Assembly (NCBI GenBank): GCA_020725405.1
Contig: DYFB01000039.1
Coordinates: 44,428-108,427, forward strand
Direction: 5' to 3'
Length of the DNA: 64,000 nt
Source of the DNA: Symbiobacterium sp.
GTDB taxonomy: Bacteria; Bacillota; Sulfobacillia; UBA995; UBA9673
In this document: one piece after another, positions 3,603 through 40,346 of the stretch
Position numbering within the stretch: the stretch's first letter is position 1
How the letters are laid out: the number at the start of each line of letters is the position of its first letter
Notes under the pieces: generated by a model
Database searches by the model: none
What the model was told of the DNA's origin: nothing
What the model saw: the letters and a program-made list of their open reading frames with translations, nothing else
Position numbers and translations under genes: made by a program

Positions 3603-5288
3603 TCAGGCGTCGACGAGAATGGGTCCGTAGCCGGTCGCCCCGGCGAGCGACTCGGCGGCCCGGGGCAGACGGTGGGCCACGTCGGAGGCCAGAAGGCCCC
3701 GTGACCCGACCTCGGCGGCGGCGAGGTCCCCGGCCAGACCGTGCACGGCCACCCCGAGAAGGGCCGCCTCCAGAGGGGGAACCCCCTGGGCCAGGTAGGC
3801 GCCGATGGCCCCGGCCAGGACGTCGCCGCTGCCGGCGGTGGCCAGCCCCGGGTTCCCGGTGGCGTTGAGCCAGGCCCGACCATCCGGAGCGGCGACCACC
3901 GTGCCCGCTCCCTTGAGAACGACCACGCAGCGCCAGGCCGTGGCGGCCGCGAGGGCCGCTGCGGTGCGGTCGGCCTGGATGTCCTCCGCCGGGCGGCCCG
4001 TCAGCCGGGCCATCTCGCCCGGGTGCGGGGTGAGAACCGGAACGAGGGCGTCCGGTCTCCGGGTGGACGAGAGTGCGTCGGCCACGGCCTCCGGACCGGC
4101 GAGAGCCAGGTTGTTCAGGGCATCGGCGTCGAGGACCACGGGCAAGGACAGCCGCCCGACGAGACGGCCGACGACGGCGGCCACCCCGTCGCCGACGCCG
4201 AGCCCTGGGCCGGCGACGAGCGCGGTCCTCCCCGCCGCCCCGCCGAGGGCCGCACCGAGGGTCGTATCGAGTTCCCCGGCCGCGTCCGCGGACAGCCGGC
4301 CGGAGGTGTCCTCCGGAAGACCGCGGGTGAGCGCTTCGGGCAGGGCGCCGGCCACAAGAGGGCGGCTCCCTTCGGGGCAGAGGGCCGTCACCAGCCCGGC
4401 GCCCGCCCGCAGCGCTCCCAGCGCGGCCAGGACCGCGGCTCCGGTGAAGCCTGGCGAGCCGGCGAGAACGAAGACACGCCCGAAGGTGCCCTTGTGGCCG
4501 GTGACCGGTCGCGGGGGAAGCCACACCGCGGCCTCCGGCGGTAGGAGCCATCTCAGAGCACCGCGGCGCGGGCGGGCGCCGGAGTCGGCCGACGCCTCTT
4601 CGAGACAGCGCGAGGGAAGACCGATGGGGGCGAGATAGAGCCTGCCGGTGTGCTCGCGCGCCTCGGGCGCGGCCAGGCCGGCCTTGACCCCCCCGAAGGT
4701 GACCGTGGCGGCGGCCCTCACGGCCTCCCCCCGGGCCCGCCCGGTGTCCGCATCGAGACCGGACGGAAGGTCAACAGCCAGGACCCGGGGGCCGGAGACC
4801 GAGTTGACCAGCGCTATGAGGTCAGCCACGGGCTCACGCGGCCTTCCGCGCGCCCCCGTACCGAGCAGGGCATCGACGACGACGGCAGCCCTGGCTAGAA
4901 GCGGGGCGAACTCGCTCGGGCCCAGGCCTGCTTCTCCGAAGACGCGGGGCCGGGCGAAGCCACCCCGCGTGAGAGCCTCGAGGTTGGTCCGGGCGTCCCC
5001 GGCCAGGGTTTCGGCCGCTTCGGCCAGGACGACCTCGACCGGCAGGCCCCTCTCGGCCAGGTGTCTTGCGGCGACCAGGCCGTCGCCGCCGTTGTTCCCG
5101 CGGCCGGCGAGGACGACCACAAGGCCGGGGACCGAGCCGCGGGCGCGGGCCTCGGGCTCGACCAGGTCCAACACCACCCGGGCCACGGCCCGACCGGCAT
5201 TCTCCATCAGGACCAGCGAAGGTATCCCGCTGGCCGTGGCCAGTTCATCGGCCCGCTTCATCTCGGCTGCGGTGTAGAGCCGGACCAT
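3603..5288 (-). CDS. nnr: Bifunctional NAD(P)H-hydrate repair enzyme Nnr (YjeF_N epimerase + YjeF_C ADP-dependent dehydratase)
   Basis: 561 aa. N-terminal VVLAGRGNNGGDGLVAARHL (YjeF_N) and C-terminal GHKGTFGRVFVLAGS...GSGDVLAG (carbohydrate-kinase-like YjeF_C). ATG at 5288 overlaps the acpS stop (ATGA). Confidence 0.9.
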   Translation of the reverse strand: MVRLYTAAEMKRADELATASGIPSLVLMENAGRAVARVVLDLVEPEARARGSVPGLVVVLAGRGNNGGDGLVAARHLAERGLPVEVVLAEAAETLAGDARTNLEALTRGGFARPRVFGEAGLGPSEFAPLLARAAVVVDALLGTGARGRPREPVADLIALVNSVSGPRVLAVDLPSGLDADTGRARGEAVRAAATVTFGGVKAGLAAPEAREHTGRLYLAPIGLPSRCLEEASADSGARPRRGALRWLLPPEAAVWLPPRPVTGHKGTFGRVFVLAGSPGFTGAAVLAALGALRAGAGLVTALCPEGSRPLVAGALPEALTRGLPEDTSGRLSADAAGELDTTLGAALGGAAGRTALVAGPGLGVGDGVAAVVGRLVGRLSLPVVLDADALNNLALAGPEAVADALSSTRRPDALVPVLTPHPGEMARLTGRPAEDIQADRTAAALAAATAWRCVVVLKGAGTVVAAPDGRAWLNATGNPGLATAGSGDVLAGAIGAYLAQGVPPLEAALLGVAVHGLAGDLAAAEVGSRGLLASDVAHRLPRAAESLAGATGYGPILVDA

Positions 5289-5860: not shown

Positions 5861-5977
5861 CGTCATCACCACCTGGGAAAGCTTCGGGCGCGCCCCGGCC
5901 TTATCCTTGTCGCCGGCCCACCCCCGTACCCGCGCGGGATTCCGGCTCCCTCAGACGGCCGCGAGACGGCCGCGGCG

Positions 5978-6796
5978 TCAGCCGACCAGGTCCCGCCAGC
6001 CCAGGGCCTCCAGGCTGCGGTCGACCTTCTCGCCCGTCTCGACCTCGATGATGAAGCGGGGATTGAGACCCCGCCCGGCGAGGGCGTCGAAGAAGGGGAC
6101 GAAGTCGATGACCCCGTCCCCGACGGCCAGATGCTCGTCCCAGCCGCCGTGGTTGTCGGAGAGATGGACGTAGGTGAGACGGCGGTCCAGGGCGGCGACC
6201 CATCCCGGAAGCGGGACGCGGGAGAAGAGGTTGACGTGACCCGTATCGAGACAAGCCCGGAGATGAGGGCTCCCCACCAGATCCAGGAGTTCCACCAGGA
6301 AGTCCGGGCAGGGATCCCACATGTTCTCGAGGACGGCCGTGAGCCTGGTCCGACGCAGAACAGGCACGAGGTCCGACCAGAAAGCCGCGCTCTCCTCCAC
6401 CCAGCGGCGCGGGTAGCCGGGCATCCGGAGAACCGGATGGAACTGCGTGTGGAAGACGACGTGGTCGGCCCCGAGCCGGGCCGCCGCCTCTATCGCCTGC
6501 AGATACCGGCTCCGCGTGAGGGACCGGAGACCGGGTTCCGGGCTGATAGGGTTGAGGTCGAGGAACGGCCCGTGGACCGAGAGCTTCCCGGGGCTGCCAC
6601 CCACGAGGTCGTCGTAGAGCCGCGTGAGGCCGGCTGTGTCCCCGTCGAGGACCTCCCCCCGCCCGAAGTCGGCCACCTCCAGGCCGAGCCGTCCGGACCG
6701 GACGGGGGCGGTGAAGGGCTCGGGGACGAGAGCCCGCTCGACCGGGACGGCGAGAGACGGTCTTGAGAAGGCCAGGGACCCGGCTCTGTTATCCAT
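5978..6796 (-). CDS. Sugar phosphate isomerase/epimerase (xylose-isomerase-like TIM barrel)
   Basis: 272-aa C-terminal part of ORF 5978..7321 starting MDNRAGS (ATG 6796). Motifs HVVFHT, ENMWD, DTGHVN, HLSDNHG are typical of AP-endonuclease-2/xylose-isomerase-like TIM barrels. The upstream part of the ORF is a low-complexity artefact across the CT-repeat. Confidence 0.75.
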   Translation of the reverse strand: MDNRAGSLAFSRPSLAVPVERALVPEPFTAPVRSGRLGLEVADFGRGEVLDGDTAGLTRLYDDLVGGSPGKLSVHGPFLDLNPISPEPGLRSLTRSRYLQAIEAAARLGADHVVFHTQFHPVLRMPGYPRRWVEESAAFWSDLVPVLRRTRLTAVLENMWDPCPDFLVELLDLVGSPHLRACLDTGHVNLFSRVPLPGWVAALDRRLTYVHLSDNHGGWDEHLAVGDGVIDFVPFFDALAGRGLNPRFIIEVETGEKVDRSLEALGWRDLVG

Positions 6797-30360: not shown

Positions 30361-30554
30361 CGCCCTGTCGCCCTGGCCGTGAGCCCGCCGCGCCAATCCT
30401 GGCGCTCCCGCCCGAGGAGGCCCCGCTGTCTGAGCGGAAACCCACATCTGGGCTTCCATTCCACTTGCCAGGGAACTCTCCCGTTCGTAGCGAAAAGTGT
30501 CAGGAGTTGGCGCTTTGCCCCGGAGCAAGCCCTAATCCACTGGCGAGGGAGCCT

Positions 30555-33500
30555 ATGAGCGCGGTCCCGGCCATACCGGAAATCGACTTCTCGGCCGACC
30601 CCGAGGCCGTCCGCCTCGTGGCCGAGGCGCACCGCCTGAGCTATGGTCACCTGGCGAACCCCGGGTTCGCCGCCGAGGTGTCTCTCATCGACCCCCTGCC
30701 GCACCAGCGAATCGCGGTCTACGACCACATTCTGAACCAGCGGCCGCTTCGCTTCCTCCTGGCCGACGACGCCGGGGCCGGAAAGACTATCATGACCGGC
30801 CTCTACATCCGCGAGATGCTCAGCCGGCGTCTCCTGCGCCGCGTACTGGTAGTCCCGCCCGCCGGACTGGTCAGCAACTGGCGGCGCGAGCTGGCCACGC
30901 TCTTCGGCCTCCGCGCGCGGGTGATCACCGGGGCGGACGCCTCCCGCGCGAGCGGGTCCGGTGACTCGCCGAACCCCTTCCGCGGTCCGGGCTCCGACCT
31001 CGCCATCGTCAGCGTCGACACCCTGGCGGGGCAGAAGGTCTTCTCCCGTCTGGCCGAGCCGGGCGTGGAACCCTACGACCTCGTCGTCTTCGACGAGGCC
31101 CACAAGCTGGCCGCCCGCCAGGACCCGGACGGCCGCATCGTGAAGACCGACCGCTACAGCCTCGCGGAGGCGCTGGCGGGCGTGAAGACTAGCGAGCCCC
31201 GGTTCCGTCTCGATTGGCACGCCCGCAATCTCCTGCTCCTCACGGCCACGCCGCACATGGGCAAGGACTTCCCCTACTACTGCCTCTGGCGGCTCCTCGA
31301 GCCCGAGGCCCTGGCTACCTTCGAGGCCTTCTCGGCCTACCCGCCCGCCGAGCGACGCCATCATTTCCTCCGCCGGACCAAGGAGGAGATGGTGGACTTC
31401 TCCGGACGCCCGCTCTACCCGCCGCGGCACTGTGATACCGTGAGCTACGAGCTCACCCAGGGCGGGGAGAGCGAGCAAGAGCTCTACGACGAGACCACCA
31501 AGTACATCAGCAGTTACTACAACCGGGCGCGCCTCCTCAATCGCACGGCCGTACGCCTGGCCATGAGCGTCTTCCAGCGCCGTCTGGCGAGTTCCACCTA
31601 CGCCCTGATGCGATCGTTCGAGCGCCGCCTGGAGAAGCTCGAAGCCATCATGGACGACCTCAGGTCCGGGCGCCTCACCGCCGACCAACTGCTCATCCGG
31701 CAGCGCCGCCTGGACAGCACCCGTGATCTCCTGGACGAGGCCACGGCGGACGAAGAAGGAGTCGAGCACGGCGAGGAGAGCAGCGAGGCCGCTGAGCGGA
31801 ACCTCCTCGGCGGCGTGGTCGCCGTGAACCTGGCCGAGCTCGAGGTGGAGAAAGCCAAAGTCGCCGAGCTCCTCGACCTCGCCCGCCGCGTAGCGGCCAA
31901 GGGCAGCGGGGCCAAGTTCGAACGCCTCCTGGAGGTCCTGGGCGACGCGCGTTTCGCCGAAGAGAAGTTCCTCATTTTCACAGAGCACCGCGACACGATG
32001 GACTTCATCGCCCGCCGGTTGGAGGCCCTCGGCTATACCGGCCAGGTGGCCCGGATCCACGGCGGTCTCGACGCCGCCGAGCGGGACCGCCAGATCGAGT
32101 TCTTCCGCGCCCCGGCCGGCGCCGGAGGAGCCCGCTTCATGGTCTGCACCGACGCGGCTGGTGAGGGTATTAACCTTCAGTTCTGCTGGCTCATGGTCAA
32201 CTACGACATCCCGTGGAACCCGGCTCGCCTGGAGCAGCGCATGGGCCGCATCCATCGCTACCTTCAGACCCGCGAGGTCCGCATCATCAACCTCGTTGCC
32301 GGGAACACCCGCGAGGGCCGGGTGCTGAAGACTCTGCTCGACAAGCTCCAGCTCATCCGCGAGCGGCTCGGCTCGGACAAGGTCTTCGACGTGGTGGGGC
32401 GGCTCTTCGAGGGCGTCTCGCTCCGAGAGTACATGGAGATGGCCGTCACCGAAGCGGGGGTTGAGGCTGCCGCCAGGTTCATCGAAGGCCGACTCACCCC
32501 CGAGCAGGTCGAGGCCCTCGAGGCCCGTGAGCGCCTCCTCTACGGCGACCGCGGGGACGTCAAACGAGAACTGCCGGCTCTCAAAGACCGGCTCGAGCAG
32601 GAAGGACTGCGGCGGCTCCTTCCGGGCTACGTCCGGCACTTCGTGCTCGGGGCCGCGCCGGTGCTCGACCTCGCCCTCGAGGGCCCGGTGGACGGCCGCT
32701 TCACCTTCCGGCCCCTCCGCCCAGGCGCTCTGGACCCCTTCCTGCCGGCCTCGGAGGCCTACCCTCCCGACTGGCAGACACTCTTCACCATCGAGCGCCC
32801 GGCACGGGAGGAGAAGGTCGTCTTCCTGCGCCCCGGCGAGCCGTTCTTCGAGAGTCTGCGCGAGGCTGTGGCGTCCAGGCTGGAGGGGTCAGCCCTCAGG
32901 GGTGGGGTCTTCACCGACCCCCACGCCACGGGTCCCTACCTCTTCCACCTGGCCCTGGTCAGCGTGGTGCGCCGCCGTGACCCCGCCGATCCGGGCTTCG
33001 CGGAAGAACTTCTCCTGGAGGAGAGAGTCGTCGGCGTGCGCCAGGACGAGAGCGGCAACATGGAGCTGTGCCCCATCGAGCACCTGCTCCTCCTGCGCGG
33101 GGCGCCAGGGGCCTTGCCGGTGGGCCGTCTTGCGGCGGCGCCGCTGGAGTACCGGGAACAGGCCCGCCGATTCGCGATGACCCGGGTGGCGGAGGTCCGG
33201 GCCGAGGACATCCGGGAGAGGCTCCGGCTGGAACTGGCCCGGCGCCGAGAGGCGGTCCGCCAGGGCTACGACTACCGGCTGGCCGAGCTCGGCGAGAGCC
33301 GGGTCAGGCTGCGCAAGGCGGCCTCGGAGGGAGACCGCAGGGCCGCCGGCGAGCTCGAGGCCGTCAAGCGAGAGCAGGAGCGGGTCACGGCCGAGGCGCA
33401 GGCGGCCTCCCGGCGGTTGGAGCGGGAACCCGACCTCGTGGCGCCGGGCGAGGTGCGCTTCCTCGCCCACGCGCTGGTCCTGCCCAGCGCCGACAGCGAG

Positions 33501-33911
33501 GACCAGGCTCATCACGACGCCCGGGTGGAGGCTCTGGCCATGGAGTACGCCCGCCGCTACGAGGAGGACCTCGGCGCCGTGGTGAAGGACGTCTCCACAG
33601 CGGACCGGGCCCGCGAGGCCGGCCTCGGCGACCGGCCCGGCTTCGACCTCCTCTCCCGGCGCCCCGATGGGCAGGAGCTGTGCATCGAGGTCAAGGGCCG
33701 GGCCCACGCCGGTGAGGTCGAGGTGACCCGGAACGAGTGGGCCCAGGCCTGTAACCTGGGTCCGCGGTACTGGCTCTACGTGGTCTACGACTGCGCCACC
33801 CGCCAGCCGAGGTTGCGCCGGATCCAGGACCCCTTCTCCCGGCTCCTGGCCAGGACCAAGGGGAGCGTGCTCATCAGCGAAGCGGAAATAGCCGAAGCGG
33901 CGGAGGGATGA
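30555..33911 (+). CDS. SNF2-family helicase (DEAH box) with a C-terminal DUF3883-like PD-(D/E)xK nuclease-like domain (BrxHII-like; 'HmaA'-like)
   Basis: Start at ATG 30555 (GAGGGAG RBS); the ORF track's TTG at 30465 is less likely. Helicase motifs: I DDAGAGKT, II VVFDEAHKL, VI QRMGRIHRYLQ. C-terminal segment ...DGQELCIEVKG...YWLYVVYDC carries a D..E.K signature. Confidence 0.9.
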   Translation: MSAVPAIPEIDFSADPEAVRLVAEAHRLSYGHLANPGFAAEVSLIDPLPHQRIAVYDHILNQRPLRFLLADDAGAGKTIMTGLYIREMLSRRLLRRVLVVPPAGLVSNWRRELATLFGLRARVITGADASRASGSGDSPNPFRGPGSDLAIVSVDTLAGQKVFSRLAEPGVEPYDLVVFDEAHKLAARQDPDGRIVKTDRYSLAEALAGVKTSEPRFRLDWHARNLLLLTATPHMGKDFPYYCLWRLLEPEALATFEAFSAYPPAERRHHFLRRTKEEMVDFSGRPLYPPRHCDTVSYELTQGGESEQELYDETTKYISSYYNRARLLNRTAVRLAMSVFQRRLASSTYALMRSFERRLEKLEAIMDDLRSGRLTADQLLIRQRRLDSTRDLLDEATADEEGVEHGEESSEAAERNLLGGVVAVNLAELEVEKAKVAELLDLARRVAAKGSGAKFERLLEVLGDARFAEEKFLIFTEHRDTMDFIARRLEALGYTGQVARIHGGLDAAERDRQIEFFRAPAGAGGARFMVCTDAAGEGINLQFCWLMVNYDIPWNPARLEQRMGRIHRYLQTREVRIINLVAGNTREGRVLKTLLDKLQLIRERLGSDKVFDVVGRLFEGVSLREYMEMAVTEAGVEAAARFIEGRLTPEQVEALEARERLLYGDRGDVKRELPALKDRLEQEGLRRLLPGYVRHFVLGAAPVLDLALEGPVDGRFTFRPLRPGALDPFLPASEAYPPDWQTLFTIERPAREEKVVFLRPGEPFFESLREAVASRLEGSALRGGVFTDPHATGPYLFHLALVSVVRRRDPADPGFAEELLLEERVVGVRQDESGNMELCPIEHLLLLRGAPGALPVGRLAAAPLEYREQARRFAMTRVAEVRAEDIRERLRLELARRREAVRQGYDYRLAELGESRVRLRKAASEGDRRAAGELEAVKREQERVTAEAQAASRRLEREPDLVAPGEVRFLAHALVLPSADSEDQAHHDARVEALAMEYARRYEEDLGAVVKDVSTADRAREAGLGDRPGFDLLSRRPDGQELCIEVKGRAHAGEVEVTRNEWAQACNLGPRYWLYVVYDCATRQPRLRRIQDPFSRLLARTKGSVLISEAEIAEAAEG

Positions 33912-33918
33912 ACTCGCG

Positions 33919-36900
33919 GTGGAACCCAGCGGACCGACCGGACGGCGCCTCATCGAGGCGACCTTTCCGCTGAGGCAGGCGTCACTCGACTCCGTGCACG
34001 AGAAGAACGTCCGGCACGGGCATATCTCCACCCTGCACATCTGGCCGGCCCGGCGACCCCTGGCCGCCTGCCGGGCCGCGCTCATCGCCACTCTCCTGCC
34101 GGACCCCGGGACTTCCGAAGAGCGCCGGCGGCTCGCGGAGAGAATCGGCGGGAGGGTTGTCGAGCGTCGCGAGATGAAGAAGGTCGGCTCCCGGGAGGTC
34201 GAGACGGTCCGGGAGGAGACCGAGGGAGGACTCCTCCACTGGGGGCGGGAGAACAGCCCCGACCTCGACTGGTTCCGGGAGGAGATCCGCAAGGCCTACG
34301 GCGGCAGGGCTCCGAAGGTGCTGGACCCCTTCGCCGGTGGAGGGTCCATACCCCTCGAGGCCATGCGCCTCGGCTGCGAGGCCATCGCGATGGACATCAA
34401 CCCGGTGGCGTGGTTCATCCTGAAGTGCACGCTGGACTACCCCCACCGGATGGCCGGTAAGACCCTGCCTCTGCCCAAGGCGGCCCTCGAGTCGGCCGAG
34501 TTCATGGAGGCCTTCCTGCGAGGGACGGGGAGGGTCAAGAAGAAGGCGGACCTTGAGCGGCAGCTCCAAGGGGTGCAGCTCGGCCTCTTCCCGCCTCCCG
34601 AGGCCGACCTCGCTTGGCACGTGCGGGCGTGGGGTCGCTGGGTCTTCCAGCGGGCCAAGGTGGACCTCGAACGCTTCTACCCGGTGGTCGACGGGAAGCC
34701 CACGGTGGCCTACCTGTGGGCGAGGACGGTCAAGTGCAAGAACTGCCGCGGGGAGGTGCCTCTCCTCAAGACCAGGTGGCTCTGCCGTAAGCCGGATAAG
34801 AAGGTGCTCCTCACCCTGCGCACGGAGCCGGGCAAGGCCGAGGCCGACTTCGGCGTCCGGGTTCTCCGGCCTGACGAGGTGGTGAACGACGCCGACACCA
34901 AGGGTACCATGTCCAGGGCCGGGGCGACCTGCCCGCACTGCGGCGTCATCACGATGATGGAGGACCTCCGCCAGGAGGGTCGCGCCGGTCGCCTAGGGCA
35001 GCGGTTGGTGGCCGTGGTGGTCGAGGGGGCCCGTGGAAAGGAGTATCGACCTCCCACCGGTGAGGAGATACGGAGGGCATCGGAGGCTGGGGGCGCGGTC
35101 GCTTCGGCGTTCGACGGAGTACCCTTCGGGACCCCCGACGAACCGCTTCCGGCCAAGGAGGCGCTCGGCATCCGGGTCCCACTCTACGGCTTGGATACCT
35201 GGGGGAAGCTGTTCAACCCTCGCCAGCTGCTCGCCCTGGGAAGCTTCGTCCGCCATACTCGTGCGGCACGGGAGGCGATGCATGCTCACGAGTACTCCCC
35301 AGAGTGGGTCGAAGCGGTGGGGACCCTTCTAACCCTCGTAGTCGATAAACTCGCGGACTATAACGCGAGCCTAACGACATGGAACACGCCTGGGGAAAAG
35401 ATGAGGAACGTCTTTGTCCGGTTCGCCCTGCCCATAACGTGGGATTATGCTGAGCTTAACCCCCTTTCACAGTCTACCGGGAACTACCTAGCCTGCCTAG
35501 AGTGGGTGGCCCGGTCAACGGAGCATACCTCTCTAGCTGCGCTGAGGTGTCCCTTCCCGCAAAGCGTTCTCGGCTCGGCTATCCGCCTACCTGCCGAGCA
35601 GGGGACGGTGGACCTCGTGGTGACCGACCCGCCGTACTACGACGCCATACCCTACTCGGATACGATGGACTTCTTCTACGTCTGGCTACGCCGGAGCACG
35701 CACGGGCTGGCTCCGGACGTCGATGCGGCCTTTTCCGAAGAGCTCGGCCCGAAGTGGGACGGGCCTCGAGAGGAAGGAGAGCTTATCGACGACGATAGTC
35801 GCTTCGGTGGTGACCCCCAAAGGTCCCGGGCCGCCTACGAAGCCGGCATGCTTAAGGCGTTCCAGGAGTGCTACCGAGTCCTCCGCCCCGAGGGGCGGCT
35901 CGTGGTCGTCTTCGCCCAGAAGAACCCTGCGGCGTGGGAAGCCCTCGTTTCGGCCATGCTTCGAGCGGGCTTCGTGGTCACCGCAAGTTGGCCGGTGCAA
36001 ACCGAGAGGGAGACCCGCACTAGAGCACTGTCCGGAGCTGCCCTCTCCTCGTCAGTCTGGCTTGTCTGCCGCAAGCGCCCGCCGAGCGCCCGACCCGGGT
36101 GGGATAACCAGGTCCTCGAAGAGACGCGCGCACGCCTCTGGGGCGTGCGGGCTGACGAGGTCGGCGAGTGGGTGTATCGCCCCACCCTCCGCGAGTTCTG
36201 GGATGCCGGGATTCGCGGCCCCGATTTCGTCTGGGCGGCCACCGGTCCGGCGCTCGAGGCCTACAGCCGCTACCCGGCGGTGAAGAAGGCCGACCGGCCC
36301 GATGAACTCCTGACCGTGAGCGAGTTCCTCCGCCACGTGCGTCGCCTGGTGGTGGATTTCGTCGTCGGCCGCGTGCTCACCCCGGAAGGAGAGCCGTCGG
36401 CCGCGCCCCCGCTAGACGACGTAACGACCTACTACCTCCTTCACCGGCAGGCTTTCCAGTTTTCCGAGACCCCCATCGGCGCGGTCATCCTCTATTCCGT
36501 GTCGTGCGGGCTCTCGGACCGCGACCTCGTGGAGGAGTACGACCTCCTTTCCCGCAGCGGCGGGAGCACCGCGCCCGCCGACCTGGAAGAGGACGGTTCG
36601 GATTCCGGGGAGGACGCCCAAGAAGAGGGAGAGGAAGAGGAAACCGCCGGCGCTTCCGGCGGCACCTCAAAGGTCCGGCTCAGGCCCTGGCACCAACGCC
36701 GGGGCAAGCGCATGGGTTACGAGAACGGCGGCCGGCCGGTGCCGCTGATAGACCAGGTCCATCGGCTGATGCATCTCTGGAAGACCGGCGACGTGCGCGC
36801 GGTCAACCACTACATCGGCGAGCGGGGTCTGCAATCAAGCGGCGTGTTCGCTAGGCTCCTCCAGGCCCTCATCGAGCTCTCGCCCGTCGGAGACGAGGAG

Positions 36901-37023
36901 CGGACGCTCCTGGAGAGCATCAGCAACCACCTGGCCGGGCTCCGGCTGGCTCGCCGGCCCGACCAGCTCTTTGACAGCCAGCAGGCTCCTGAAGAGCCCT
37001 TTCGGGGAGGCGTAAAGTCATGA
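33919..37023 (+). CDS. DUF1156-type DNA methyltransferase (N6-adenine/N4-cytosine class; PglXI-like; 'HmaB'-like)
   Basis: GTG start 8 nt after the helicase stop. N-terminal DUF1156 signature (IEATFPL...HISTLHIWPARRP). Motif I VLDPFAGGGSIPLEA. Cys4 Zn-ribbon insertion (CKNCRG...CPHCG). Motif IV VVTDPPYYD about 440 aa after motif I. Confidence 0.9.
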   Translation: MEPSGPTGRRLIEATFPLRQASLDSVHEKNVRHGHISTLHIWPARRPLAACRAALIATLLPDPGTSEERRRLAERIGGRVVERREMKKVGSREVETVREETEGGLLHWGRENSPDLDWFREEIRKAYGGRAPKVLDPFAGGGSIPLEAMRLGCEAIAMDINPVAWFILKCTLDYPHRMAGKTLPLPKAALESAEFMEAFLRGTGRVKKKADLERQLQGVQLGLFPPPEADLAWHVRAWGRWVFQRAKVDLERFYPVVDGKPTVAYLWARTVKCKNCRGEVPLLKTRWLCRKPDKKVLLTLRTEPGKAEADFGVRVLRPDEVVNDADTKGTMSRAGATCPHCGVITMMEDLRQEGRAGRLGQRLVAVVVEGARGKEYRPPTGEEIRRASEAGGAVASAFDGVPFGTPDEPLPAKEALGIRVPLYGLDTWGKLFNPRQLLALGSFVRHTRAAREAMHAHEYSPEWVEAVGTLLTLVVDKLADYNASLTTWNTPGEKMRNVFVRFALPITWDYAELNPLSQSTGNYLACLEWVARSTEHTSLAALRCPFPQSVLGSAIRLPAEQGTVDLVVTDPPYYDAIPYSDTMDFFYVWLRRSTHGLAPDVDAAFSEELGPKWDGPREEGELIDDDSRFGGDPQRSRAAYEAGMLKAFQECYRVLRPEGRLVVVFAQKNPAAWEALVSAMLRAGFVVTASWPVQTERETRTRALSGAALSSSVWLVCRKRPPSARPGWDNQVLEETRARLWGVRADEVGEWVYRPTLREFWDAGIRGPDFVWAATGPALEAYSRYPAVKKADRPDELLTVSEFLRHVRRLVVDFVVGRVLTPEGEPSAAPPLDDVTTYYLLHRQAFQFSETPIGAVILYSVSCGLSDRDLVEEYDLLSRSGGSTAPADLEEDGSDSGEDAQEEGEEEETAGASGGTSKVRLRPWHQRRGKRMGYENGGRPVPLIDQVHRLMHLWKTGDVRAVNHYIGERGLQSSGVFARLLQALIELSPVGDEERTLLESISNHLAGLRLARRPDQLFDSQQAPEEPFRGGVKS

Positions 37024-40000
37024 TTTCAACCCCGACCTTCACTCCGTGGCACAAGGTGGTGCGGCTCCGCGACGACCTCCGGTCCGGGGAACTTCCCCTG
37101 GCCATCTTCGCCGCCGATCTCTACGCGGTCCGGATGGCGACGGCCCCACCGGTCTACCGGGACCCCCGGGAGTTCTTCTCGCTGACCTACCCGGCCCACA
37201 ACCTCCGCAGGCTGGCCAAGGAGGTCATGGACCGGCTCGCCGGCCGGAGCGAGCGAGCCGTCCGCCAACTCGAGCTCACCTACGGAGGCGGCAAGACCCA
37301 CGCCCTCATCACCCTCTACCACCTCGTGAACGACCCAGAGACGCTTCCGGAGGACCTTCCGGCCGTACGCGAGTTCATCGTGCACGCTGGGCAGCGCCCG
37401 CCCAAGGCCCGCGTGGCCGTGCTGGCCTTCGACAAGCTGGACGTCGAGAAGGGCATGGAGGTGCCCGGCCCCGACGGCCGGAAGCGGTGGCTCCGCCATC
37501 CCTGGAGCGTCCTCGCCTACCAGCTCGCCGGCTCGGAGGGTCTGCGCCTCCTCCACGCCGCGGACCGGGACGAAGAGCGCGAGAGCCCCCCGGCGGAGAA
37601 CCTCCTCACCGAGCTCCTCGCCATCCCCGCCCGCGCAGACCTGGCCACTCTCATCCTCATCGACGAGGTCCTGATGTACGCCCGCGAGAAGGTGGCCCTG
37701 GACCCCACCTGGAGGGCGCGGCTCGTGGACTTCTGCCAGTACCTCACCCAGGCCACCACGGCCGTTCCGCGCTGCGCCATCGTCGCTTCACTCCTGGCCA
37801 CCGACCCGCGCAAGTACGACTCCCTGGGCCGCGAGCTGGCGAAGGACCTCTCCGACATCTTCCGCCGGGAGAAGGAGGAGAGCATCCAGCCCGTCCTCAA
37901 GGAGGACGTGGCCGAGATCCTCCGCCGTCGTTTCTTCACGCCGGAGTCGACCCGCGACCACGAGCTCTTCCGGCCGCACGTCATAGCGGCTCTACAGGGC
38001 ATCCAGGCCCTGGACGAGGCCACCGCTCGTCAGGGCCCTGAGGCCGAGGAGAGGTACCTGGCCAGCTACCCCTTCCATCCAGACCTCACCGACGTCTTCT
38101 ACACCAAGTGGACCAACCTCGAGGGCTTCCAGCGCACCCGGGGTATCCTCCGCACCTTCGCCCTCGCCCTGCGCGAGGCGGAACGCTGGGACACCTCGCC
38201 CCTGGTGGCCGCCAACGTCTTCCTCAGCGAGCCCGGCCGGACCGATCTCTCCCCGGCGGCCCGGGAGCTCACCGGGGTAGCCGCCACCGAGGAGTACGAG
38301 GGTAAGAGGCAGGAGTGGACCGCCATCCTTGAAGGGGAACTGGCCAAGGCACGAGCCATACAGGAAGAGTGCCCGGCCCTTCGTCACCGCGAGGTGGAGC
38401 AGGCCGTCTTCGCGACCTTCCTCCACTCCCAGCCGGCGACCCAGAAGGCCCTCACCCGGGAACTCATGGTTCTGGTCGGAGCCACCTGCCCGGACCGGAT
38501 CGAGCTCGGAAAGGCCCTCCGGCGATGGGCGGAGGTCTCCTGGTTCCTCGACGAGGCCGGCCTCCAAGACGTGGAGAACGGTCCACAGGGAGAGCGATTC
38601 CTGCCCCGAACGTGGCGTCTGGGCTCCCGGCCTAACCTGACCCAGATGCACCACGACGCCTGCGGCCGCGTATCGGCGGAGTTGGTCGAGGCCCGGCTGC
38701 TTGAGGACATCGCCAGGACCAAGGACCTTACGGCCGGTGCCGGTAAGGCCGGGGCCAGGGTTCACACCCTGCCGGAGGCGCCCAACGACATCTCCGACGA
38801 CTGGGAGTTCCACTATGCGGTGCTCGGGCCGAAGGCCGCGTCCGAGCCGGGTAAGCCCAGTGCCGAGGCCGTCCGCTTTCTCACCGAGACCTCCGGCCCG
38901 CAAAAGCCCCGGGTCAACCAGAACGCCGTCGTCCTGGCCGTTCCGGCCCGGGAGGGGCTCGAGATCGCTCGGAGCCGCGTCCGTGACTACCTTGGGTGGG
39001 AGGAAGTGGCCCAGCAGCTCAAGGAGCAGAAGGTCCACGACCCCCTGCGCACGGCGGCCCTGAACGCCCACCTCGATGCAAGCCGCAAGGCCATCCCGGC
39101 CGCCGTCCAGCAGGCCTACTGCATCGTCGTCACCATCGGACGAGACGGCGGACCCGAGGCCTTCAGAGTCACCGTCGGCGACCGGCCGCTGTTCGAGGTT
39201 ATCAAGGCCGACGAGCGCTCGCGCATCCGCGAGTCGGCTGTGGCGGCCGGCGCCCTCCTACCCGGCGGCCCGTACGACCTGTGGGAGGAAGGCGAGACCT
39301 CGCGCCGGATGCGGGACCTCGTCGGGTCCTTCGCCCAGTTTCCACGCCTGCCGAAGATGCTCAACTCCCAGGCCATCCTGGACACCCTCCTGGCTGGCTG
39401 TCAGAGCGGCCTCTTCGTGATGCGGCTGACCCGGCCCGACCGCTCGGTCCGCACCTTCTGGCGGGAGAGGCCGGACGATGTGGCCGTGAAGGATCCGAGC
39501 CTCGAGGTGGTTCTGCCCCAGGGGGCCGCTCTAACGGAGCTGGCCCCGTCTCTTCTCGAGCCCGGCGCTCTGCCGGGACTGTGGCCGCAAGAGGGGAGGT
39601 TCAGGGTGGGCGACCTTTACGCCTACTTCGCCGGCGGCCACTCCGTGGCCGTTTCGCGCGGGACGTACGAGGAGACCGTCGTCATCCCCGCGGCCCCGCG
39701 GGAGGTCGTGGACGTGGCCGTGCGCGCCGCGGTAAGGGAGGCCAAGGTGTGGCTCCTCGCCGCCGGCGGGGCGGCCAGCGTCTGCGAGGAGGACATCCCG
39801 CCGGGGCTGCTCACCGAGAACGCCATCCTCCAGGGGCCGCCGGAGCCTCTGTCGCCCACGTCCATCCTGCCGGACGCCCTGCCGGCGGCCTGGCCGGGGC
39901 CACCGCCCGGCTCGGTCGAACGCCTTACCAGCGCCCTGGCCATCCTAGACGCCGCCTCGGCCAGAGCCGGGCTGACCCTGCCTTGGGCGGTGGTCCGCCG

Positions 40001-40346
40001 GGCCATCGACGGGGCCCTTCGGACCCGGCTCCTCGAGCTGGCCGACGGCTCGGGCCCTTGGCCGTGCGAGCTAACGGCGGCGAAGGACGTCAGGCTGAGG
40101 GAGAGGAAGGCTGGCGGCGGCCCCGTGCCACCTGAATGGCCCAAAGTGGCCCAGGCTGACCTCGAACCGAACGAGCTCCAGGAGCTGGCGGACCAGACCG
40201 CCACCCTCCTCAAGGTCGCGGGCCGCGAGAAGGTCAAGTACCACGTCCGCATCGAGCTCTCCGAGACCGATGCGGAGACCCTCGAACAAGTCGCGAACGT
40301 GCTCCTTGCCGTGAGCCCGCGCTTGCGGCTGAAAGAGAGTGGTTAG
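37020..40346 (+). CDS. DUF499-like P-loop ATPase (BrxC/PglY-like; 'HmaC'-like)
   Basis: ATGA overlap with the methylase stop. N-terminal TPWHKVVRLRDDL...FAADLYAV...FFSLTYPAHNLRRL...LELTYGGGKTHALITLYHL (Walker-A-like GGGKTH). 1108 aa, with size and architecture like BrxC. Confidence 0.85.
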   Translation: MISTPTFTPWHKVVRLRDDLRSGELPLAIFAADLYAVRMATAPPVYRDPREFFSLTYPAHNLRRLAKEVMDRLAGRSERAVRQLELTYGGGKTHALITLYHLVNDPETLPEDLPAVREFIVHAGQRPPKARVAVLAFDKLDVEKGMEVPGPDGRKRWLRHPWSVLAYQLAGSEGLRLLHAADRDEERESPPAENLLTELLAIPARADLATLILIDEVLMYAREKVALDPTWRARLVDFCQYLTQATTAVPRCAIVASLLATDPRKYDSLGRELAKDLSDIFRREKEESIQPVLKEDVAEILRRRFFTPESTRDHELFRPHVIAALQGIQALDEATARQGPEAEERYLASYPFHPDLTDVFYTKWTNLEGFQRTRGILRTFALALREAERWDTSPLVAANVFLSEPGRTDLSPAARELTGVAATEEYEGKRQEWTAILEGELAKARAIQEECPALRHREVEQAVFATFLHSQPATQKALTRELMVLVGATCPDRIELGKALRRWAEVSWFLDEAGLQDVENGPQGERFLPRTWRLGSRPNLTQMHHDACGRVSAELVEARLLEDIARTKDLTAGAGKAGARVHTLPEAPNDISDDWEFHYAVLGPKAASEPGKPSAEAVRFLTETSGPQKPRVNQNAVVLAVPAREGLEIARSRVRDYLGWEEVAQQLKEQKVHDPLRTAALNAHLDASRKAIPAAVQQAYCIVVTIGRDGGPEAFRVTVGDRPLFEVIKADERSRIRESAVAAGALLPGGPYDLWEEGETSRRMRDLVGSFAQFPRLPKMLNSQAILDTLLAGCQSGLFVMRLTRPDRSVRTFWRERPDDVAVKDPSLEVVLPQGAALTELAPSLLEPGALPGLWPQEGRFRVGDLYAYFAGGHSVAVSRGTYEETVVIPAAPREVVDVAVRAAVREAKVWLLAAGGAASVCEEDIPPGLLTENAILQGPPEPLSPTSILPDALPAAWPGPPPGSVERLTSALAILDAASARAGLTLPWAVVRRAIDGALRTRLLELADGSGPWPCELTAAKDVRLRERKAGGGPVPPEWPKVAQADLEPNELQELADQTATLLKVAGREKVKYHVRIELSETDAETLEQVANVLLAVSPRLRLKESG

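What the first reader, a model, noticed from the sequence alone, without database searches (positions are those of the whole stretch)
34324..35640. DUF1156 methyltransferase with ~440-aa insertion containing a Cys4 zinc ribbon between AdoMet motif I and catalytic DPPY motif
Seen in sequence:
- Motif I VLDPFAGGGS is at ~aa 135 and motif IV VVTDPPYYD at ~aa 575.
- The intervening region contains VKCKNCRGEV...(57 aa)...CPHCGV, a treble-clef/Zn-ribbon signature, and Lys/Arg-rich stretches.

Such a large target-recognition insertion with a Zn ribbon is unusual for gamma-class amino-MTases. It may confer DNA-sequence or structure specificity. The N-terminal DUF1156 block (IEATFPL...HISTLHIWPARRP) has no assigned function.
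Basis: seen in the sequence. Interest (0 to 1): 0.55.

Follow-up and report, generated by a model that had tools for sequence, protein, structure and literature searches.

The report
Known defence methylase with built-in zinc ribbon
The gene is an ordinary member of a published anti-phage system (Hma, also called a type-1 BREX-related system), and its large middle insertion with four cysteines is the normal, already described DNA-recognition domain of that methylase family.

Summary
ORF 33919-37023 (+) encodes a 1034-aa DUF1156 methyltransferase. Motif I (VLDPFAGGGS) is at aa 134-143, DPPY at aa 570-573, and CKNC/CPHC at aa 273-276 and 338-341.

It is not unusual. The gene is HmaB (PADLOC E=3e-113). 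It sits between an SNF2 helicase-nuclease (HmaA) and a DUF499 ATPase (HmaC).

- **Insertion:** every relative examined has 380-610 aa between motifs I and IV, and this protein is at the short end.
- **Cysteines:** all four are kept in 121/121 close homologues, 78/81 genome loci and 96/107 representatives at 33-60% identity. Most lineages that lack the full set have lost several of the four together.
- **Fold:** a confident model (pLDDT 94) puts the insert after core strand 2, with each CxxC at a beta-hairpin turn, as in a zinc ribbon.
- **Class:** this is the alpha-class layout, not gamma.

A 2026 NAR paper already describes the nested recognition domain with a four-cysteine zinc finger in these methylases. 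The MANTIS preprint shows that swapping part of the equivalent domain switches specificity.

One thing is added here. A near-identical strain differs almost only in codons 321-720, while the first zinc knuckle and its strands are unchanged. The ribbon therefore looks like scaffold rather than sequence reader.

Verdict: already known, low interest.

The parts
30465..33911 (+). hmaA: SNF2-type helicase (1148 aa) with a C-terminal PD-(D/E)XK nuclease (NOV_C/DUF3883). Predicted restriction effector.
   Evidence: PADLOC HmaA E=3e-152. Pfam hits to Helicase_C, SNF2-rel_dom and NOV_C (aa 1021-1118). A D...ExK motif 'GFDLL...CIEVKG' is present.
33919..37023 (+). hmaB: DUF1156 alpha-class amino-methyltransferase (1034 aa). 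This is the gene of the finding.
   Evidence: PADLOC HmaB E=3e-113, colinear with profile positions 8-809 of 973. Pfam DUF1156 and N6_N4_Mtase. 7983 homologues with E<=1e-10.
33964..34122 (+). DUF1156 N-terminal element (aa 16-68). Its nearly invariant core loop KNVRHGHISTLHIWPARRPL (aa 29-48, nt 34003-34062) is probably a DNA minor-groove loop preceding motif X.
   Evidence: Pfam E=3e-17. Invariant columns R32-A50. The loop aligns with aa 37-58 of a Pseudomonas MtsC-like protein, the position of the DNA-inserting loop in MtsC. This mapping is an inference.
34318..34347 (+). Motif I VLDPFAGGGS (AdoMet binding) on core strand 1.
34456..35553 (+). Nested target-recognition domain (aa about 180-545), inserted after core strand 2/helix B and before core strand 3.
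   Evidence: AlphaFold2 model with pLDDT 93.9 and its secondary-structure order. No PDB structure covers it. Matches the published description.
34696..34956 (+). Zinc-ribbon-bearing beta sheet (aa 260-346), with knuckle 1 CKNC (nt 34735-34746) and knuckle 2 CPHC (nt 34930-34941).
   Evidence: Each CxxC lies at the turn between two strands, E262-272/E279-282 and E335-337/E344-346. All four Cys are kept in 121/121, 78/81 and 96/107 relatives. This is the lowest-entropy part of the insert.
34879..36078 (+). Mosaic tract (codons 321-720) that differs from a near-identical strain. It covers the distal recognition domain plus the catalytic half of the core. The equivalent of the MtsC specificity segment is aa about 369-443 (nt 35023-35247).
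   Evidence: Nucleotide identity is 58-73% (codons 321-560) and 82-84% (codons 561-720), against 97-100% in the rest of the gene and 99.1% in the upstream flank.
35617..35643 (+). Motif IV VVTDPPYYD (catalytic DPPY at nt 35626-35637) on core strand 4.
   Evidence: D470/P471/P472 of the fragment (= aa 570-572) are invariant in 142 sequences.
36139..37020 (+). C-terminal helical region (aa 741-1034) with an acidic low-complexity linker (aa 889-908, nt 36583-36642). The literature describes this region as three HTH-like domains.
   Evidence: Helical in the model, with low confidence over aa 820-939. Literature description. Not tested further here.
37020..40346 (+). hmaC: DUF499 AAA+ (ORC/Cdc6-like) ATPase, 1108 aa, with no HEPN N-terminus. 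Predicted loader and activator of the methyltransferase.
   Evidence: PADLOC HmaC E=2e-76 and Pfam DUF499. Walker A GGGKT lies near aa 90. Its start overlaps the hmaB stop (ATGA).

Best explanation
The ORF is HmaB, the modification subunit of an intact three-gene Hma system (a type-1 DUF499-centred BREX-related system): hmaA, hmaB, hmaC.

It is an alpha-class amino-methyltransferase, most likely modifying N6 of adenine in DNA. Its Rossmann core is split after strand 2 by a recognition domain of about 365 aa.

Inside that domain, two CxxC knuckles at beta-hairpin turns most likely bind one structural zinc ion. The zinc would rigidify a basic beta sheet that helps hold DNA. Sequence specificity is set mainly by the variable segments downstream of the ribbon (aa about 320-560), which are exchanged between strains by recombination.

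By analogy with MANTIS, HmaB probably marks short asymmetric host sites, needs the DUF499 ATPase to be loaded on DNA, and also directs the HmaA helicase-nuclease to unmodified sites.

Shown here: system identity, family-wide architecture, cysteine conservation, fold topology and the mosaic variation. Inferred: zinc binding, target base and sequence, ATPase dependence, and coupling to restriction.
For: - **System identity:** PADLOC HmaA/B/C at 3e-152, 3e-113 and 2e-76, plus the matching Pfam domains. The A-B-C order on one strand recurs in 48 of 80 loci from many phyla; most of the rest are truncated contigs.
- **Insert is universal:** the distance from motif I to motif IV is 421-612 aa in 81 genomic homologues, with the query at 432. 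It is about 380-520 aa in 106 representatives, 386 and 393 aa in two MANTIS-type proteins and 557 aa in a Klebsiella relative.
- **Cysteines:** all four are kept in 121/121, 78/81 and 96/107 relatives, while the other cysteines of the query fall to 12-78%. Most proteins that lack the full set have lost two to four of the cysteines together.
- **Structure:** the model has pLDDT 93.9 and pTM 0.93, with the insert after strand 2 and each CxxC at a hairpin turn.
- **Scaffold rather than reader:** aa 256-290 is the least variable part of the insert. Against a strain with about 99% identical flanks, codons 241-280 (first knuckle and its strands) show no differences and the CPHC knuckle itself is unchanged, while codons 321-560 drop to 58-73% nucleotide identity.
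- **Literature:** nested recognition domain and four-cysteine zinc finger in these methylases and in BrxXI (PMC12839542). MtsC is a group-alpha methylase with a central recognition domain, it hemimethylates adenine in 6-bp sites, it needs the DUF499 ATPase, and a domain swap switches both methylation and restriction specificity (10.64898/2026.09.23.753747). HmaA alone protects against T4 (PMC11232893).
Against: - No metal, methylation or phage data exist for this protein, and I found no methylome data for any type-1 member. In the Halomonas study, propagating T4 on cells overexpressing HmaB did not change its sensitivity to HmaA.
- MANTIS-type methylases keep only a C-x4-C pair yet remain sequence-specific. 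The ribbon is therefore dispensable in some lineages, and its role cannot be read from the solved MtsC structure.
- The basic composition of the sheet and the variable-length loop between the knuckles (57-89 aa) leave room for some contribution to DNA recognition.
- The mosaic comparison uses a metagenome-assembled genome, which could be a strain chimera.
Confidence: 0.75

Rival explanations
1. The zinc ribbon itself is the sequence or shape reader that sets the methyltransferase's DNA specificity.
For: - The sheet carrying the knuckles is 20% K+R.
- The loop between the two knuckles varies in length (57-89 aa) and in sequence.
Against: - The knuckle strands are the most conserved part of the insert across 33-93% identity.
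- The first knuckle and its strands are identical, and the CPHC knuckle is unchanged, between alleles whose distal recognition domain is only 50-75% identical.
- MANTIS-type enzymes lack the full Cys4 site but recognise defined 6-bp sites, and their specificity maps to a segment equivalent to aa about 369-443 here.
Confidence: 0.15
2. The zinc ribbon is a protein-protein docking or regulatory module, for example for the DUF499 loader HmaC or the helicase HmaA, rather than a DNA-binding element.
For: - The ribbon is strongly conserved independently of the variable recognition segments.
- In MANTIS the methylase cannot bind DNA without the ATPase and a co-activator, MtsB.
- MANTIS-type methylases, which have the extra MtsB, lack the full Cys4 site.
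Against: - This rests on correlation only.
- Type-1 clades that lost the four cysteines show no conserved extra gene in the operon.
- The basic surface composition fits nucleic-acid contact.
Confidence: 0.1
3. The enzyme modifies RNA (an m2G-type tRNA or rRNA methylase) rather than DNA.
Against: - These matches cover only the generic Rossmann core (140-185 of 640 residues).
- The operon partners are a DNA helicase-nuclease and an ORC/Cdc6-type ATPase.
- The homologue MtsC methylates DNA adenine.
- The DNA methylases TTHA0409 and EcoP15I Mod score nearly as well.
Confidence: 0.04
4. The long ORF is an artefact: a frameshifted or mis-assembled fusion of two genes.
For: None found.
Against: - The frame is uninterrupted.
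- The alignment is colinear with the HmaB profile, with 120 homologues at 96-100% coverage, and with genomic copies in about 80 taxa.
- The confident single-chain model has both halves of one Rossmann fold packed together.
Confidence: 0.01

Closest known systems
HmaB of the Hma system, also called the type-1 DUF499-centred BREX-related (BR) system (PADLOC, Payne 2021; Liu 2024 in Halomonas meridiana; NAR 2026, PMC12839542)
   Same: Same three-gene operon and same domain order: DUF1156, then motifs I/II, then nested recognition domain with four-cysteine zinc finger, then DPPY core, then helical C-terminus. Full-length profile match at E=3e-113.
   Different: Nothing architectural. This copy has a compact operon with no inserted defence genes, an HmaC without the HEPN N-terminus, and an insert at the short end of the family range.
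MtsC of MANTIS (Gao_RL, BR type 2; preprint 10.64898/2026.09.23.753747)
   Same: A homologous DUF1156 methylase of group alpha with a central recognition domain and a similar motif I to motif IV spacing of about 380 aa. It partners with a DUF499 ATPase. The swapped specificity segment and the N-terminal DNA loop can both be mapped onto the query.
   Different: - MANTIS has a fourth gene (DUF3780, MtsB) and a PLD-helicase effector instead of SNF2 plus PD-(D/E)XK.
- MANTIS-type methylases keep only a C-x4-C pair and have no second knuckle.
- The NCBIfam score here is 174 bits against a cut-off of 1000.
BrxXI/PglXI methyltransferase of type-3 BREX
   Same: According to PMC12839542, the same core with the recognition domain inserted after strand 2, a four-cysteine zinc finger at its apex, and three C-terminal HTH-like domains.
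   Different: BrxXI lacks DUF1156 and works with PglZ, BrxA and BrxF, which are absent here. The PADLOC PglXI model matches only 52 residues (E=3e-11).
Classical alpha-class N6-adenine methyltransferases (Dam, DpnM; D12 class)
   Same: Same permutation: AdoMet-binding region, then recognition domain, then catalytic DPPY region. There is a weak Pfam MethyltransfD12 match to aa 116-173.
   Different: Their recognition domains are much smaller and, to my knowledge, lack a zinc ribbon. They lack DUF1156 and the C-terminal HTH region, and they act alone rather than being loaded by an ATPase.

Membership tests
Hma / type-1 DUF499-centred BREX-related system | Adjacent, co-oriented genes for a Swi2/Snf2 helicase, an N6-methyltransferase and a DUF499 AAA+ ATPase | tested here: met
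   ORFs 30465-33911, 33919-37023 and 37020-40346, all on the + strand. PADLOC HmaA/B/C at 3e-152, 3e-113 and 2e-76.
Hma / type-1 DUF499-centred BREX-related system | Helicase carries a C-terminal active PD-(D/E)XK nuclease, which marks type 1 | tested here: met
   NOV_C (PF13020) at aa 1021-1118, E=3e-18. The D...ExK motif is present. Catalytic activity was not tested.
Hma / type-1 DUF499-centred BREX-related system | Methyltransferase with an N-terminal DUF1156 and a recognition domain inserted after core strand 2 | tested here: met
   PF06634 E=3e-17. The model places the insert between strand 2/helix B (aa 154-178) and strand 3 (aa 548-551).
Hma / type-1 DUF499-centred BREX-related system | Four-cysteine zinc finger within the recognition domain | tested here: met
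   CKNC and CPHC are present and conserved in 90-100% of relatives. Zinc binding itself cannot be tested with these tools.
Hma / type-1 DUF499-centred BREX-related system | Anti-phage activity and self-protective methylation | not testable with these tools
   Literature only: HmaA protects against T4. No methylation has been shown for any type-1 member in the papers read.
Alpha-class (group alpha) amino-methyltransferases | Linear order: AdoMet-binding motifs (X, I, II), then recognition domain, then catalytic motifs IV-VIII | tested here: met
   Motif I at aa 134-143, insert at aa 180-545, DPPY at aa 570-573, then strands 5-7. The homologue MtsC is classed as group alpha from its crystal structure.
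   The core is interrupted by about 365 aa between motifs I/II and motif IV. The MANTIS authors contrast this layout with the group-gamma PglX.
MANTIS (BR type 2, Gao_RL) | Four genes including a small DUF3780-type MtsB and a PLD-helicase MtsD | tested here: not met
   There is no small gene between the ATPase and the methylase, and the helicase is SNF2 plus PD-(D/E)XK. NCBIfam DUF1156_antiphage scores 174 bits against a cut-off of 1000, and DUF499_antiphage 87 against 1200. Compare the true MANTIS loci L082 and L084.
Type-3 BREX | PglZ, BrxC, BrxA and BrxF encoded together with PglXI | tested here: not met
   The genes flanking the operon are an amidohydrolase and BshC. The PglXI profile matches only aa 638-689.
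Zinc-ribbon fold | Two beta-hairpins, each with a CxxC knuckle at the turn, together binding one zinc ion | tested here: inconclusive
   The secondary structure fits: E262-272 | CKNC | E279-282, and E335-337 | CPHC | E344-346.

The most novel reading that the evidence does not exclude
In type-1 systems the conserved zinc ribbon might not be a DNA reader at all. It could be the docking or activation point through which the DUF499 ATPase loads the methyltransferase, doing the job that the separate co-activator MtsB does in MANTIS, whose methylases have lost the full Cys4 site.

Together with the naturally exchanged cassette of about 1.2 kb (codons 321-720), this would mean a fixed 'handle' plus a swappable 'reader' that reprograms modification and restriction at once.
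Probability: 0.1. Interest if true: 0.45.

Novelty: already known. Interest (0 to 1): 0.15.

Why it matters
It matters little as a discovery. The architecture, the zinc finger and the system are all published, and a homologue has a crystal structure.

It has modest practical value. This locus and its near-identical relative form a natural pair of alleles that differ almost only in the distal recognition domain. That makes them a ready-made test of where specificity resides in type-1 Hma/BR methylases, for which I found no recognition sequence or methylome in the papers read. It would also test whether the conserved zinc ribbon is needed for folding, DNA binding or ATPase-dependent loading.

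Tried and rejected
1. A full-length AlphaFold2 run with a shallow 30-sequence alignment gave pLDDT 58 and a disordered core. Its Foldseek search was uninformative, with all E>0.1. It was replaced by a model of aa 101-740 built on an 80-sequence alignment at 32-90% identity.
3. I tested whether type-1 clades that lost all four cysteines (L073, L074, L079) gained a conserved extra gene that might compensate. The inserted genes differ between loci, so the idea was dropped.
4. The apparent split of the helicase in the close relative L081 is an N-run assembly gap, not a pseudogene.
5. A search of the NAR paper's supplements for a motif table of these methylases returned nothing useful.
6. There are no tRNA genes in the window that would mark an integration site.
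7. An alignment of 142 sequences was too large for the structure server and was cut to 80.
Full report
**Observation.** ORF 33919..37023 (+) is one uninterrupted frame of 1034 aa.
- Motif I VLDPFAGGGS is at aa 134-143, VVTDPPYYD at aa 567-575, CKNC at aa 273-276 and CPHC at aa 338-341.
- Pfam places DUF1156 at aa 16-68 (E=3e-17). It also gives a partial N6_N4_Mtase match starting at the DPPY region.
- Two CxxC within 100 residues arise in 0.35% of shuffles of this protein.

The description is therefore accurate. The only corrections are that motif IV starts at aa 567, and that the true structural insert is about 365 aa rather than about 440.

**What the gene is.** The ORF is the middle gene of a compact, co-oriented operon.
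- Upstream lies an 1148-aa SNF2 helicase with a C-terminal NOV_C/PD-(D/E)XK nuclease (30465-33911).
- Downstream lies an 1108-aa DUF499 AAA+ ATPase (37020-40346), whose start overlaps the methylase stop codon.
- PADLOC identifies the three proteins as HmaA (3e-152), HmaB (3e-113) and HmaC (2e-76). The query aligns colinearly with positions 8-809 of the 973-position HmaB profile, so it carries no extra insertion relative to its family.
- NCBIfam models for the related MANTIS-type proteins match only weakly, far below their cut-offs.
- The flanking genes are housekeeping: an AcrB-type pump, an amidohydrolase and BshC.

**The insert is the family norm.**
- A search of 5.8 billion proteins gave 7983 homologues with E<=1e-10. 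The best 120 are mostly about 1000-1100 aa, and most cover 96-100% of the query.
- A scan of one genome per species returned 596 confirmed loci. The 80 kept span Bacillota, Chloroflexota, Acidobacteriota, Planctomycetota, Pseudomonadota and others. In 48 of them the helicase, methylase and ATPase are on one strand in the same order, and most of the rest are truncated contigs.
- In these 81 proteins the motif I to motif IV distance is 421-612 aa, with a median near 500. The query, at 432, is at the short end.
- An exhaustive HMMER search of 1.84 billion representatives found 1753 clusters with E<=1e-30. All full-length representatives in which both motifs could be located (33-60% identity) have about 380-520 aa between the motifs.

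**The cysteines.** All four cysteines are kept in:
- 121/121 sequences in the alignment of the query with its 120 close homologues;
- 78/81 genomic copies;
- 96/107 representatives.

They are among the columns that are at least 90% invariant in a 142-sequence alignment at 33-90% identity. The other nine cysteines of the query fall to 12-78% in the representatives.

Most lineages that lack the full set have lost several cysteines together. The replacement patterns include DTSS, DTSN, DPSS, HLCT and S-x-C-T, while the surrounding strands are retained. Loss of several ligands at once is what one expects of residues that together bind a single metal.

Two more distant branches differ.
- MANTIS-type methylases from Acinetobacter and Pseudomonas plasmids, and 120 relatives, keep only an invariant C-x4-C and have no second knuckle.
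- A Klebsiella plasmid relative, encoded next to SIR2 and SNF2 genes, has four Cys pairs. This fits the published 'two zinc fingers' variant.

**Structure.** A full-length model from a shallow alignment was poor. A model of aa 101-740 built on 80 diverse sequences reached pLDDT 93.9 and pTM 0.93. Its order of elements is:
1. strand 1 (aa 133-136, motif I), a helix, strand 2 (aa 154-159) and a helix (aa 162-178);
2. an alpha+beta module spanning aa about 180-545;
3. strand 3 (aa 548-551) and strand 4 (aa 564-569), followed by DPPY;
4. strands 5-7.

CKNC sits at the turn between strands 262-272 and 279-282. CPHC sits between strands 335-337 and 344-346. This is zinc-ribbon topology rather than treble clef.

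**What is already known.**
- PADLOC named Hma in 2021, from 1638 operons in 26 phyla.
- Liu et al. 2024 showed that HmaA protects against T4. They found that propagating T4 on HmaB-overexpressing cells had no effect on its sensitivity.
- The 2026 NAR survey renames these loci type-1 DUF499-centred BREX-related systems. [quoted passage not shown] It describes a conserved four-cysteine zinc finger at the apex of that insert in the type-3 BREX counterpart, and refers to 'the usual singular Zn-finger' in the BREX-related methylases.
- The MANTIS preprint solves the type-2 homologue MtsC and calls it group alpha with a central recognition domain, with motif I at F241 and DPPY at D621. It shows adenine hemimethylation of asymmetric 6-bp sites and dependence on the DUF499 ATPase and on MtsB. 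Exchanging aa 444-527 of the recognition domain switches both methylation and restriction specificity.

**Where the variation lies.** Column entropy shows that the knuckle-bearing strands (aa 256-290) are the most conserved part of the insert. Segments 196-225, 301-330, 376-420, 451-495 and 511-570 are hypervariable.

A more telling comparison is with MAG GCA_020725165.1.
- It shares the same synteny, and the DNA upstream of the tract, including hmaA, is about 99% identical.
- Within hmaB, codons 1-320 and 721-1034 are 97-100% identical at the nucleotide level.
- Codons 321-560 drop to 58-73% nucleotide identity, and codons 561-720 to 82-84%. Both synonymous and non-synonymous changes are abundant.

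This is an exchanged allele tract (window nt 34879-36078), not point mutation. A second relative, P0001, differs mainly at aa 451-570 and 601-720, so its breakpoints are different.

Through a Pseudomonas MtsC-like protein whose numbering is close to that of MtsC, the swapped MtsC segment maps to query aa about 369-443, inside the exchanged tract. The MtsC minor-groove loop (aa 37-58) maps to the invariant DUF1156 core KNVRHGHISTLHIWPARRPL. This mapping is an inference, accurate to about 10 residues.

**Mechanism.** The best-supported reading is as follows.
- HmaB is an alpha-class DNA adenine methylase.
- Its recognition domain is built on a zinc-stabilised basic beta sheet, which is 20% K+R.
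- Specificity is set by the downstream variable segments.
- By analogy with MANTIS, it is loaded by the DUF499 ATPase and also targets the helicase-nuclease.

Zinc binding, target base, target sequence and ATPase dependence are all inferred.

The rivals are less likely, for the reasons given in their entries:
- ribbon as the specificity reader;
- ribbon as a docking site for the loader;
- RNA as the substrate;
- an artefactual gene fusion.

**Verdict.** The class is wrong, since this is alpha and not gamma, and the claim of unusualness is wrong. The feature is already described in the literature, so interest is low. The only addition here is the allele mosaic. It makes this locus a convenient test case for where specificity resides in type-1 systems.

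Noticed in passing
window 34879-36078 (hmaB codons 321-720) compared with L081 7277-8476: A near-identical strain (MAG GCA_020725165.1) has about 99% identical DNA upstream and 97-100% identity in the rest of hmaB. It is only 58-73% identical over codons 321-560 and 82-84% over codons 561-720. This is an exchanged tract inside the methylase covering the distal recognition domain and the catalytic half of the core. P0001 shows a second mosaic with different breakpoints.
   Followed up: yes
L073, L074, L079 (methylase ORFs starting near 5960-5990), and representatives P0129, P0132, P0134, P0136, P0225, P0230, P0247, P0254, P0255: About 4-10% of type-1 methylases have lost several or all of the four zinc-ligand cysteines together (DTSS, DPSS, HLCT, S-x-C-T) while keeping the flanking strands. 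No conserved compensating gene was seen in the three genomic loci.
   Followed up: partly
L082 5690-8536 (A. baumannii pSSMA17_1), L084 5974-9021 (P. fluorescens pG69), and P0271-P0390: MANTIS-type (BR type-2) DUF1156 methylases keep only an invariant C-x4-C at the first-knuckle position. In the A. baumannii-type set (P0271-P0390) a conserved H-S-P replaces the second CxxC. The full Cys4 site is therefore absent from these relatives of the only branch with a solved structure.
   Followed up: partly
L083 5030-8245 (K. pneumoniae pKP0155-2): This DUF1156 methylase has DPPF instead of DPPY, 557 aa between motifs I and IV, and four Cys pairs, which suggests two zinc sites. Its locus also encodes DUF499, a SIR2 protein, an ATP-binding protein and an SNF2 protein. 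It is probably the published type-3 BR variant.
   Followed up: no
window 34003-34062 (HmaB aa 29-48): The nearly invariant DUF1156 core loop KNVRHGHISTLHIWPARRPL aligns with aa 37-58 of a Pseudomonas MtsC-like protein. That is the position of the loop the MANTIS preprint shows entering the DNA minor groove. This would give DUF1156 a DNA-binding role.
   Followed up: partly
window 36583-36642 (HmaB aa 889-908): An acidic low-complexity linker (LEEDGSDSGEDAQEEGEEEE) lies within the low-confidence C-terminal region. It recalls the 'flexible, negatively charged' C-terminal domain reported for MtsC.
   Followed up: no
window 33909-33921 and 37020-37023: The operon is tightly packed. The hmaA stop codon is 7 nt from the hmaB GTG start, and the hmaB stop overlaps the hmaC start (ATGA). 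There are no inserted defence genes, unlike many related loci, which carry 1-5 kb of extra genes between the three core genes.
   Followed up: partly
L081 about 3790-3800: In the public gene calls for the close relative, the helicase appears as two genes (297 aa and 823 aa). This is caused by a run of N (an assembly gap), not by a frameshift or pseudogene.
   Followed up: yes
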